DNA from: Escherichia coli O127:H6 str. E2348/69
Lineage (GTDB): Bacteria > Pseudomonadota > Gammaproteobacteria > Enterobacterales > Enterobacteriaceae
Strand: one strand, 5' to 3'
Assembly: GCF_000026545.1 (NCBI RefSeq)
Contig: NC_011601.1
DNA length: 64,000 nt
The position numbers were made by a program. Within the stretch, counting starts at the first letter, position 1. Each line of letters begins with the position of its first letter. Below, in pieces: positions 9,001 through 12,000 of the stretch.

Positions 9001-12000
9001 TCGGTATCATTGCTTAAAGGGGTAGGGGTCTGGGATGCAGTACAGGCTATGCGTTGCCATCCTTACCGCAGACTGGAAACGTGGGAGTGGGAAACGGCGC
9101 ATGTCGTGTTTGACGCCGCTGAACTTAAGCTACCGTTGCTTGGCTACATGGTGGAAAACACTGTCCTGCAACAGGCGTTGTGGCAGGCGCTGGAAGCGCA
9201 TCCGAAAGTAACGTTACGTGTGCCAGGCTCGCTGATTGCACAGCATCGCCATAATGATCTTCAGGAGCTGGAACTGAAGGGCGGTGAAACGATCCTCGCG
9301 AAGCTGGTGATTGGTGCCGACGGCGCAAATTCGCAGGTGCGACAGATGGCGGGAATTGGCGTTCATGCCTGGCAGTATGCGCAGTCGTGTATGTTGATTA
9401 GCGTACAGTGTGAGAACGATCCCGGCGACAGCACCTGGCAGCAATTTACCCCGGACGGACCGCGTGCGTTTCTGCCGTTGTTTGATAACTGGGCATCGCT
9501 GGTGTGGTATGACTCTCCGGCGCGCATTCGCCAGTTGCAGAATATGAATATGGCGCAGCTACAGGCGGAAATCGCGAAGCATTTCCCGTCGCGTCTGGGT
9601 TACGTGACACCGCTTGCCGCTGGTGCGTTTCCGCTGATACGTCGCCATGCGTTGCAGTATGTGCAACCAGGGCTTGCTCTGGTGGGCGATGCCGCGCATA
9701 CCATCCATCCGCTGGCGGGACAGGGAGTGAATCTTGGTTATCGTGATGTCGATGCCCTGATTGACGTTCTGGTGAACGCCCGCAGCTACGGCGAAGCGTG
9801 GGCCAGTTATCCTGTGCTCAAGCGTTACCAGATGCGGCGTATGGCGGATAACTTCATGATGCAAAGTGGTATGGATCTGTTTTATGCCGGATTCAGCAAT
9901 AATCTGCCACCGCTGCGTTTTGTGCGTAATCTTGGTTTGATGGCGGCGGAGCGTGCTGGCGTGTTGAAACGTAAGGCGCTGAAATATGCGTTAGGGTTGT
10001 AGCCTCACAACATTGCTGGATGCATGCCAACCGTAGGTCGGATAAGACGCGGCAGCGTCGCATCCGACTTTGAAGGATAAGACGAGTCAACATCGCATTC
10101 GGCATTGAATATACGCAGAAAAGCAAAAAGCTCGCCGAAGCGAGCTTTTTTAATGTGGCTGGGGTACGAGGATTCGAACCTCGGAATGCCGGAATCAGAA
10201 TCCGGTGCCTTACCGCTTGGCGATACCCCAACAAATTGGTTTTTGAATTTGCCGAACATATTCGACACATTCAGAATTTGGTGGCTACGACGGGATTCGA
10301 ACCTGTGACCCCATCATTATGAGTGATGTGCTCTAACCAACTGAGCTACGTAGCCAGATTGTTTCTTCGATGGCTGGGGTACCTGGATTCGAACCAGGGA
10401 ATGCCGGTATCAAAAACCGGTGCCTTACCGCTTGGCGATACCCCAATAACCGGGCGCTGAACCGCTTATTCGAAGAATATGGCTGGGGTACCTGGATTCG
10501 AACCAGGGAATGCCGGTATCAAAAACCGGTGCCTTACCGCTTGGCGATACCCCATCCGTACAACGCTTTCTGGTGAATGGTGCGGGAGGCGAGACTTGAA
10601 CTCGCACACCTTGCGGCGCCAGAACCTAAATCTGGTGCGTCTACCAATTTCGCCACTCCCGCAAAAAAAAGATGGTGGCTACGACGGGATTCGAACCTGT
10701 GACCCCATCATTATGAGTGATGTGCTCTAACCAACTGAGCTACGTAGCCATCTTTTTTTTCGCGATACCTTATCGGCGTTGCGGGGCGCATTATGCGTAT
10801 AGAGCCTTGCAGCGTCAACCTCTTTTTCAAGGAAAATTGCTCGAAAGTGACTGTTTGGTTAGGTTGCGAACAGCATGGCGCTATATTCGTCAATTATTGT
10901 TTACTTTGTGTTTTTTCCCCACCCTACAGCCATTCTTTTGTCATACAGGATGAAATTCGGAATTCAACAATAGTGGTGGGAAATTAATCTATGAAATACT
11001 GGCCTACAGTAATGAGTTGTCAAACAGCGATGTGGCAAACCCGGAACATTTCCTTACTGCATATCAGAATCAACAAGCGCCCCAGTAACTGAAATTGCCC
11101 CGGATTTCTCCGGGGCAATATTACACGTCTTATTTATATGCCGACTGGTGAACGCCAACCGCGCGACCAGACGGATCGTCCATTTTCTTGAACGCTTCAT
11201 CCCACTCAATCGCTTTAGCGGAAGAACAAGCGACGGAAGGACCGCCCGGCACGCACTCAGCGGCGCTCGGAAGCGGGAACAATTCTTCAAAGATCTCCCG
11301 GTACAGATACGCTTCTTTTGAGGTCGGCGTGTTGAACGGGAAGCGGAAGCGGGCAGTTTCCAGCTGTTGATCAGAAACCTGCTGCGCTGCCACTTCTTTC
11401 AGGGTGTCGATCCAACTGTAACCGACGCCATCGGAGAACTGCTCTTTTTGCCGCCAGGCCACGCTTGCAGGCAGATACGCTTCAAAACATTCACGCAGGA
11501 TGTGTTTTTCCATTTTGCCGTTACCGCACATTTTATCCTGTGGGTTAATGCGCATCGCCACATCAAGGAATTTTTTGTCGAGGAACGGAACGCGTGCTTC
11601 CACGCCCCAGGCTGACATCGCTTTGTTGGCACGCGCGCAGTCATACATATGCAGGGCCAGCAGTTTACGCACCGTCTCTTCATGCAACTCTTTAGCGTTC
11701 GGCGCTTTGTGGAAGTATAGATAACCGCCAAACACTTCGTCAGAACCTTCACCGGACAGCACCATTTTAATGCCCATCGCCTTGATCTTACGCGACATTA
11801 AATACATCGGTGTTGAAGCGCGAATAGTGGTCACATCATAAGTTTCGATGTGGTAAATCACGTCGCGGATGGCATCCAGACCTTCCTGTACAGTGAAGTG
11901 AATTTCGTGATGCACCGTGCCAAGATGGTTTGCCACTTCCTGGGCGGCTTTCAGATCCGGTGAACCCGGCAGACCTACAGCAAAAGAGTGCAACTGCGGC

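What the first reader, a model, noticed from the sequence alone, without database searches (positions are those of the whole stretch)
10156..10749. tRNA operon has six genes: only one tRNA-Gln(CUG) copy
I find Gln(CUG), Met, Gln(UUG), Gln(UUG), Leu(UAG), Met and nothing tRNA-like in 10003-10155 or 10231-10278. The K-12 cluster as I recall it has seven genes (glnX, glnV, metU, glnW, glnU, leuW, metT), with glnX and glnV as tandem CUG copies. This strain appears to have lost one copy (or K-12 gained one) by recombination between tandem repeats, which matters for supE-type suppressor genetics and tRNA dosage.
Basis: partly seen in the sequence, partly recalled or inferred. Interest (0 to 1): 0.35.

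Follow-up and report, generated by a model that had tools for sequence, protein, structure and literature searches.

The report
metT tRNA operon missing one glutamine gene
This E. coli strain (E2348/69) carries the well-known metT tRNA operon with six genes instead of seven because one of two identical tandem tRNA-Gln(CUG) genes was cleanly deleted, a recurrent and already annotated copy-number variant seen in about 3% of complete E. coli genomes.

Summary
ARAGORN and Rfam find exactly six tRNA genes on the minus strand at 10156-10749: Gln(CUG), Met, Gln(UUG), Gln(UUG), Leu(UAG), Met. Nothing tRNA-like lies in the gaps. The window is an exact copy of E. coli E2348/69 (NZ_CP059840.2), where RefSeq already annotates these six genes between ubiF and asnB.

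Compared with K-12, exactly one 112-bp repeat unit is missing (a 75-nt Gln(CUG) gene plus its 37-nt spacer), with no scar. The direction of change is loss:
- E. albertii, Citrobacter koseri and Kluyvera have seven genes (2 CUG + 2 UUG).
- So do genomes that differ from E2348/69 by 0-1 SNP in 5.5 kb of flank.

Among 5,426 complete E. coli genomes, about 148-151 carry the single-CUG junction, on at least four flanking haplotypes. About 5,268 carry two CUG copies and 27 carry three or more.

Assembly collapse is unlikely here. Three E2348/69-derived complete assemblies and one draft agree, and the other repeats in the operon are intact. Collapses do occur at this locus in other "complete" genomes (MC1061, 536).

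The most likely mechanism is slipped misalignment or unequal exchange between the identical tandem genes. The effect is probably near neutral. This is ordinary and of low interest.

The parts
10790..10818 (-). Promoter-like site of the metT operon: -35 TTGACG, 17-nt spacer, -10 CATAAT, followed by a GC-rich stretch (GCGCCCCGC).
   Evidence: Consensus scan, 10 of 12 matches; sequence read. This is a consensus match only; the transcription start was not tested.
10673..10749 (-). metT, tRNA-Met(CAU) elongator, first gene of the operon.
   Evidence: ARAGORN; Rfam tRNA 71.1 bits; identical to the second Met gene.
10578..10662 (-). leuW, tRNA-Leu(UAG).
   Evidence: ARAGORN; Rfam 57.6 bits.
10480..10554 (-). 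glnU, tRNA-Gln(UUG).
   Evidence: ARAGORN; Rfam 62.1 bits.
10371..10445 (-). glnW, tRNA-Gln(UUG), identical to glnU; tandem period 109 nt.
   Evidence: ARAGORN; sequence identity and period.
10279..10355 (-). metU, tRNA-Met(CAU), identical to metT; repeat period 394 nt.
   Evidence: ARAGORN.
10156..10230 (-). The single tRNA-Gln(CUG) gene, a glnV/glnX fusion allele. It keeps the terminator-side flank of glnX and the metU-side spacer of glnV. The deletion junction lies somewhere in the 77-nt perfect repeat (10156-10232) and cannot be placed more exactly.
   Evidence: ARAGORN; alignment to K-12; in-register deletion test. The sequence is identical to the K-12 and clone D i14 CUG genes and the anticodon is CUG, not CUA.
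10125..10150 (-). Rho-independent terminator hairpin of the operon (11-pair stem, GC core, T run).
   Evidence: Terminator scan. A terminator distal to glnX is described for K-12 in PMC2241853.

Best explanation
[quoted passage not shown] In strain E2348/69 one of the two identical tandem tRNA-Gln(CUG) genes has been deleted. The ancestral locus has two 75-nt CUG genes 112 bp apart, with 77 nt of perfect identity. Misalignment of these direct repeats removed exactly one 112-bp unit and left a single intact gene flanked by the glnX terminator and the glnV-metU spacer. The misalignment could be replication slippage or sister-strand exchange, or RecA-mediated unequal crossing-over; which one is inferred, not shown. 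The operon otherwise looks intact: promoter-like site, five other tRNA genes and terminator. It should therefore still be transcribed as one precursor and processed by RNase E and RNase P as in K-12, with the gene dosage of tRNA-Gln(CUG) halved. The event is recent in this lineage and the same deletion has arisen repeatedly in E. coli. It is probably nearly neutral, because K-12 supE44 (glnX44) strains also live with a single wild-type CUG gene.
For: - Six genes are found by two methods.
- The window equals NZ_CP059840.2 3490713-3554712 with 0 mismatches in 64,000, and RefSeq annotates the same six tRNAs there.
- There is one clean 112-bp gap against K-12, and all tRNA genes are identical.
- Removing 112 nt in register from the closest seven-gene relatives L050 and L051 reproduces the window with 2 SNPs in 6,064 nt. 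The perfect repeat is 77 nt.
- Outgroups have seven genes (Salmonella per PMC5400242).
- Population counts in 5,426 complete genomes: two-copy junction 5,268; single-copy junction 151, or 148 as a single HSP; three or more CUG copies 27, the reciprocal product.
- Six-gene alleles sit on at least four different flanking SNP haplotypes, each matching a seven-gene haplotype.
- Spontaneous recombination between identical tRNA genes of this very operon (metT x metU) was observed experimentally on a plasmid in Salmonella (PMC5400242).
- Operon processing in K-12 is described in PMC2241853.
- supE44 lies in glnX (PMC4444293).
Against: - No raw reads are available, so an assembly collapse cannot be strictly excluded.
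- Collapses at this locus demonstrably occur in other 'complete' records. MC1061 CP195014.1 shows only 2 genes, although its descendant DH10B has 7. 16 complete genomes lack any Gln(UUG) gene.
- The molecular pathway (RecA-dependent or not) and the fitness effect are inferred, not tested.
- tRNA levels were not measured.
Confidence: 0.9

Rival explanations
1. Assembly artefact: E2348/69 really has two CUG genes and the assembler collapsed the identical 75-nt tandem copies.
For: Collapsed versions of this operon exist in public complete genomes. MC1061 has 2 genes against 7 in its descendant DH10B. Strain 536 has 3 genes and ST648 has 3 genes. NWU_1 has two Met genes 1 nt apart. 16 genomes have no Gln(UUG) gene at all, which is biologically implausible. 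The near-identical strains GF47 and GF54 differ in the number of matching places at this locus.
Against: Three E2348/69-derived complete assemblies (CP059840.2, LT827011.1, LT903847.1) and the related draft AIEZ01000003.1 all show one CUG gene. In the same assemblies the neighbouring repeats (UUG pair, period 109; Met pair, period 394) are intact. A 187-nt repeat structure is far shorter than Sanger or long reads. The single-copy state is about ten times more frequent than the clearly impossible collapses. It is also shared by several genomes with the same flanking haplotype, some from different submitters: five ETEC isolates plus W13-16, GF43 and 1604D011 at 98.5% identity, and the type strain DSM 30083 with JCM 20135.
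Confidence: 0.06
2. The six-gene state is ancestral, and K-12 and most other E. coli gained a second CUG gene by duplication.
For: Duplication of the same unit does occur: 27 genomes have three or more CUG copies.
Against: E. albertii, Citrobacter koseri and Kluyvera share the 2 CUG + 2 UUG seven-gene order, and Salmonella does too. Genomes 0-1 SNP away from E2348/69 in 5.5 kb of flank have seven genes. Six-gene alleles are scattered over unrelated haplotypes.
Confidence: 0.02
3. The loss was selected rather than neutral. Lower tRNA-Gln(CUG) dosage was favoured, or it was later compensated by a third Gln(UUG) gene, as seen in very close relatives.
For: Two assemblies 1 SNP away in each flank (L046 UFZD01000005.1 and L053 AIFA01000036.1) have 1 CUG + 3 UUG. 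The library holds experimental work on tRNA gene-set evolution by duplication after a tRNA gene was deleted in Pseudomonas fluorescens (PMC7661048, listed). That the duplicated gene there is the U34 isoacceptor is my recollection, since only the start of the abstract was read.
Against: This is a single lineage and hence one event. Three-UUG arrays also occur on normal two-CUG backgrounds: 4 of 4 sampled complete genomes, out of 35 genomes with three or more UUG copies. Some of those 35 look like batch artefacts. No fitness or tRNA abundance data exist.
Confidence: 0.08

Closest known systems
[quoted passage not shown]
   Same: The chromosomal site is the same (ubiF to asnB). The gene order and strand are the same, and every tRNA gene sequence is identical. 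The terminator hairpin is identical in the aligned sequence, and the aligned part of the upstream region, including the -10 element, is identical too.
   Different: One CUG gene instead of two: 112 bp are missing. There are also a few spacer SNPs and 1-nt homopolymer differences.
RefSeq annotation of E. coli E2348/69 (NZ_CP059840.2) and other single-CUG genomes such as type strain DSM 30083 and E24377A
   Same: The window is an exact sequence match to E2348/69. The same six-gene layout is annotated in E2348/69 and E24377A. DSM 30083 gives a single full-length match to the single-copy junction and to the 4-kb query.
   Different: None for E2348/69. The other strains carry the same deletion on different flanking haplotypes.
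Deletion and expansion of short tandem direct repeats by slipped misalignment or unequal sister-strand exchange (established knowledge of E. coli repeat instability, cited from my own knowledge)
   Same: There is a precise loss of one repeat period between perfect 77-nt repeats. Both deletion and triplication alleles are present in the population.
   Different: The pathway (RecA-dependent or not) was not tested here.
Spontaneous metT x metU recombination deleting leuW-glnU-glnW on a Salmonella metT-operon plasmid (PMC5400242)
   Same: Recombination between identical tRNA genes of the same operon removes the intervening genes.
   Different: A different repeat pair is involved, on a plasmid rather than the chromosome. 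On the chromosome that larger deletion would remove all Gln(UUG) genes and should be lethal.

Membership tests
E. coli metT tRNA operon | Located between ubiF and asnB, transcribed towards ubiF. | tested here: met
   RefSeq annotation of the identical record; window identity to that record.
E. coli metT tRNA operon | Gene order Met-Leu(UAG)-Gln(UUG)x2-Met-Gln(CUG), with tRNA sequences identical to K-12. | tested here: met
   ARAGORN; alignment A1 has no mismatch inside any tRNA gene.
E. coli metT tRNA operon | Seven genes, including tandem glnV and glnX. | tested here: not met
   Only one Gln(CUG) gene is present. This is a copy-number allele of the operon, not a different operon.
E. coli metT tRNA operon | A single upstream promoter and a distal Rho-independent terminator. 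| tested here: inconclusive
   Consensus-level promoter match at 10818-10790 and a terminator hairpin at 10150-10125. The terminator is documented for K-12 (PMC2241853). Transcription was not measured here.
Tandem-repeat deletion allele (unequal exchange or slippage) | Exactly one repeat period is missing, with no scar. | tested here: met
   112-bp gap. In-register deletion of L050/L051 reproduces the window.
Tandem-repeat deletion allele (unequal exchange or slippage) | The parental repeats are perfect and long enough to misalign. | tested here: met
   77 nt of perfect identity at a period of 112 in the closest seven-gene relative.
Tandem-repeat deletion allele (unequal exchange or slippage) | Recurrent, with the reciprocal expansion product present in the population. 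| tested here: met
   At least four flanking haplotypes carry the deletion. 148-151 genomes have one copy and 27 have three or more.
Tandem-repeat deletion allele (unequal exchange or slippage) | Dependence on RecA or on replication slippage. | not testable with these tools
   Needs genetics (deletion rates in recA and other mutant backgrounds).
Assembly collapse artefact | Independent assemblies of the same strain disagree. | tested here: not met
   CP059840.2, LT827011.1 and LT903847.1 all have six genes.
Assembly collapse artefact | Doubled read depth over the collapsed unit. | not testable with these tools
   No reads are available.
supE-type amber suppressor tRNA-Gln | CUA anticodon in a Gln(CUG)-type gene. 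| tested here: not met
   The window gene has anticodon CUG. By contrast, strain EC554 carries CUA in its glnV copy.

The most novel reading that the evidence does not exclude
In the EPEC1 lineage around E2348/69 the Gln tRNA gene set may be evolving by compensation. One C34 tRNA-Gln(CUG) gene was lost (2+2 to 1+2, as in the window). Some very close relatives (L046, L053) then gained a third U34 tRNA-Gln(UUG) gene (1+3). This could be a natural counterpart of the duplication-driven tRNA gene-set evolution seen experimentally in Pseudomonas fluorescens (PMC7661048).
Probability: 0.08. Interest if true: 0.45.

Novelty: already known. Interest (0 to 1): 0.1.

Why it matters
It matters little.

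- **Annotation.** The six-gene count in E2348/69 is a real allele, not a missed gene.
- **Dosage.** tRNA-Gln(CUG) gene dosage is halved, in a species where CAG is the commoner glutamine codon (my own knowledge).
- **Suppressor genetics.** A supE-type amber suppressor cannot arise in this strain without sacrificing its only CUG gene. CAG would then be read only by the wobble-capable tRNA-Gln(UUG). This is an inference and was not tested.
- **Database quality.** The survey shows that the short tandem tRNA arrays of this operon are copy-number polymorphic (1, 2 or 3 copies). It also shows that some "complete" public assemblies are plainly wrong at this locus.

Tried and rejected
- **A hidden seventh tRNA.** Permissive Rfam (E<=1) and ARAGORN found nothing in the gaps.
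- **Counting alleles from coverage alone.** The first broad BLAST queries were confounded because the tool joins overlapping pieces, and it seemed to do so differently on the two strands. I replaced this with junction-specific queries and strict E-value cut-offs that admit only single full-length HSPs.
- **63 genomes without Gln(UUG).** I first read the 63 genomes below 95% identity as lacking Gln(UUG). The direct test gives 16.
- **MC1061 as an independent K-12 deletion.** Its record has only 2 genes and no UUG gene, while its descendant DH10B has seven. It is best read as a misassembly.
- **Three-UUG arrays enriched on single-CUG backgrounds.** 4 of 4 sampled complete genomes with three UUG genes have two CUG genes, so there is no support beyond the one EPEC1 clade.
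- **Literature.** Searches for CP059840 and LT827011 and a look-up of the original E2348/69 genome paper returned nothing held. I found no paper that describes this polymorphism explicitly.

Full report
**Observation**

ARAGORN finds six tRNA genes on the minus strand of the window:
- Gln(CUG) 10156-10230
- Met 10279-10355
- Gln(UUG) 10371-10445
- Gln(UUG) 10480-10554
- Leu(UAG) 10578-10662
- Met 10673-10749

Rfam covariance models give the same six hits (57.6-71.1 bits). Even at E<=1 they find no further tRNA-like match in 10003-10155 or 10231-10278. The first gap contains a weak REP/naRNA4-like match and a terminator hairpin at 10150-10125. A promoter-like site lies upstream of metT at 10818-10790: TTGACG, 17 nt, CATAAT, then a GC-rich stretch (sequence).

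**Identity of the window**

The 64-kb window is the exact reverse complement of E. coli E2348/69 chromosome NZ_CP059840.2, positions 3490713-3554712, with 0 mismatches. RefSeq annotates the same six tRNAs there, between ubiF and asnB. K-12 strains carry seven genes at this site (gene names in NC_000913.3).

**What differs**

The alignment to K-12 shows one clean 112-bp gap, equal to one 75-nt Gln(CUG) gene plus the 37-nt glnX-glnV spacer. All tRNA genes are identical, and there are only a few spacer differences. The remaining gene keeps the terminator-side flank of glnX and the metU-side spacer of glnV.

Genomes encoding the identical UbiF protein were retrieved. Two of them (L050; L051 = CP091384.1) differ from E2348/69 by 0-1 SNP in each flank and carry the canonical seven genes. 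Deleting any in-register 112 nt from them reproduces the window over 6,064 nt with 2 SNPs. The perfect repeat is 77 nt long. The junction therefore cannot be placed more precisely than 10156-10232.

**Direction of change**

A scan of one genome per species for tandem CUG anticodon stem-loops found the pair in E. albertii, several Citrobacter, Kluyvera, Pluralibacter, Pantoea, Mixta and others. E. albertii, C. koseri and Kluyvera have exactly the Met-Leu-Gln(UUG)x2-Met-Gln(CUG)x2 order. Salmonella has it too according to PMC5400242. The seven-gene state is ancestral, so E2348/69 lost a copy.

**Population frequency**

Counts are from junction-specific megablast queries against 5,426 complete E. 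coli genomes.

| State | Genomes |
|---|---|
| glnX-spacer-glnV junction (two CUG copies) | 5,268 |
| Single-copy junction (terminator flank-Gln-spacer-metU), full length | 151 |
| Same junction, single HSP at E<=1e-85 | 148 |
| Three or more CUG copies | 27 |
| Three or more UUG copies | 35 |

Single-copy genomes include type strain DSM 30083, E24377A, an O26, an O111:H8 and an O157:H7 strain, and a group of porcine isolates, five of them named ETEC, that share one flanking haplotype at 98.5% identity.

Flanking SNP haplotypes show the deletion on at least four backgrounds, each matching a seven-gene haplotype:
- E2348/69 and BH100N with clone D i14
- E24377A with E2863 and EC554
- O139:H1 W13-16 with 21AH057
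- K-12 with MC1061, although that record is best read as a misassembly (see the next section)

The deletion is therefore recurrent, and its reciprocal product (a triplication) also exists.

**Is it an assembly collapse?**

For this strain, probably not. CP059840.2, LT827011.1 ('E2348/69 variety 2') and LT903847.1 (an engineered derivative) all show six genes. The draft AIEZ01000003.1, 1 SNP away in each flank, does too. The other repeats of the operon are intact in the window.

The caveat still deserves respect, because some public 'complete' records are clearly wrong here:
- MC1061 CP195014.1 has only Gln(CUG)+Met, although its descendant DH10B has seven genes.
- Strain 536 has three genes.
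- ST648 has Gln(CUG)-Leu-Met.
- NWU_1 has two Met genes 1 nt apart.
- 16 complete genomes contain no Gln(UUG) gene at all. That should be lethal, since a CUG anticodon cannot read CAA (established wobble rules). PMC6265465 also describes the other five genes of the operon as essential tRNA genes.

That impossible class is about ten times rarer than the single-CUG class. The single-CUG class is also shared by several genomes with the same flanking haplotype, some from different submitters. Most single-copy calls are therefore likely to be real.

**Mechanism and consequence**

The deletion matches the known instability of short tandem direct repeats, through slipped misalignment or sister-strand exchange, or RecA-mediated unequal crossing-over. 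The pathway is inferred. Recombination between identical tRNA genes of this operon has been seen directly on a plasmid (metT x metU, PMC5400242).

The operon should still be expressed and processed as in K-12, where the terminator is removed mainly by RNase E and RNase P then separates the tRNAs (PMC2241853). The dosage of tRNA-Gln(CUG) is halved. K-12 supE44 strains carry the suppressor mutation in glnX (PMC4444293) and so also live with one wild-type CUG gene. This argues that a single copy is well tolerated. In E2348/69 a supE-type mutation would remove the only CUG gene; this is an inference.

**A further variant in close relatives**

Two assemblies 1 SNP away in each flank (L046 UFZD01000005.1 and L053 AIFA01000036.1) carry 1 CUG + 3 UUG. 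This could be compensation for the lost CUG gene. It is one lineage, however, and three-UUG arrays also occur on normal two-CUG backgrounds (4 of 4 sampled). I give this reading a low probability.

**Verdict**

The feature is an ordinary, already annotated copy-number allele of a textbook operon, and its interest is low.

Noticed in passing
L014 619-693 (NZ_CP159917.1, strain EC554, rectal swab, Spain): The glnV copy of this clinical isolate has anticodon CUA instead of CUG (a single G-to-A change). That makes it a natural supE-like amber suppressor tRNA-Gln. PGAP leaves it unannotated, so the record lists only three Gln genes.
   Followed up: partly
L003 (MC1061 CP195014.1), L044 (536 NC_008253.1), L007 (ST648 CP008697.1), L045 (NWU_1 CP121294.1): These 'complete' assemblies have a truncated metT operon of 2-4 genes, none of them Gln(UUG). 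In all, 16 of 5,426 complete genomes have no Gln(UUG) gene. This is biologically implausible and probably reflects misassembly across the identical Met or Gln genes. DH10B, a descendant of MC1061, has all seven genes.
   Followed up: partly
L046 4045-4337 and L053 4045-4337 (UFZD01000005.1, AIFA01000036.1): Very close relatives of E2348/69 (1 SNP in each flank) carry one Gln(CUG) and three tandem Gln(UUG) genes, a 1+3 version of the operon.
   Followed up: partly
DH10B, the parent of TOP10 (from memory), has two UUG genes, and MG1655 shows the standard four Gln genes. This suggests a pipeline artefact or shared contamination.
   Followed up: no
window about 19456-28435: A roughly 9-kb block of nine genes lies between nagE and glnS. 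They encode an SLC13 permease, a NanQ/YiaL-family protein, a sialidase-family protein, a TerC-family protein, a DHDPS-family protein, an alcohol dehydrogenase, D-threonate kinase, D-threonate 4-phosphate dehydrogenase and a DeoR regulator. In K-12 DH10B only a 40-residue hypothetical ORF is annotated between nagE and glnS.
   Followed up: no
window about 1056-2933: A rhomboid-family intramembrane protease gene lies between lnt and gltI, where K-12 DH10B carries an IS5 copy.
   Followed up: no
window about 58989-59384: A type 1 fimbrial protein pseudogene (internal stop, N-terminus missing) is annotated between gltA and abrB, the remnant of a fimbrial gene.
   Followed up: no
L047, L048, L052 at 3830-3904: In another lineage with the same UbiF protein, the glnX copy carries a point change (GAATGCCGG to GAATGTCGG on the plus strand) while glnV stays canonical. 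The two tandem copies are not always identical.
   Followed up: no
L016 4251-4952 (Pluralibacter gergoviae) and L019 890-1568 (Pantoea sp. 1.19): Other genera have different compositions of the same operon. Pluralibacter has three CUG and one UUG. Pantoea has an extra UUG gene after the CUG pair. The Gln arrays therefore turn over between genera as well.
   Followed up: no
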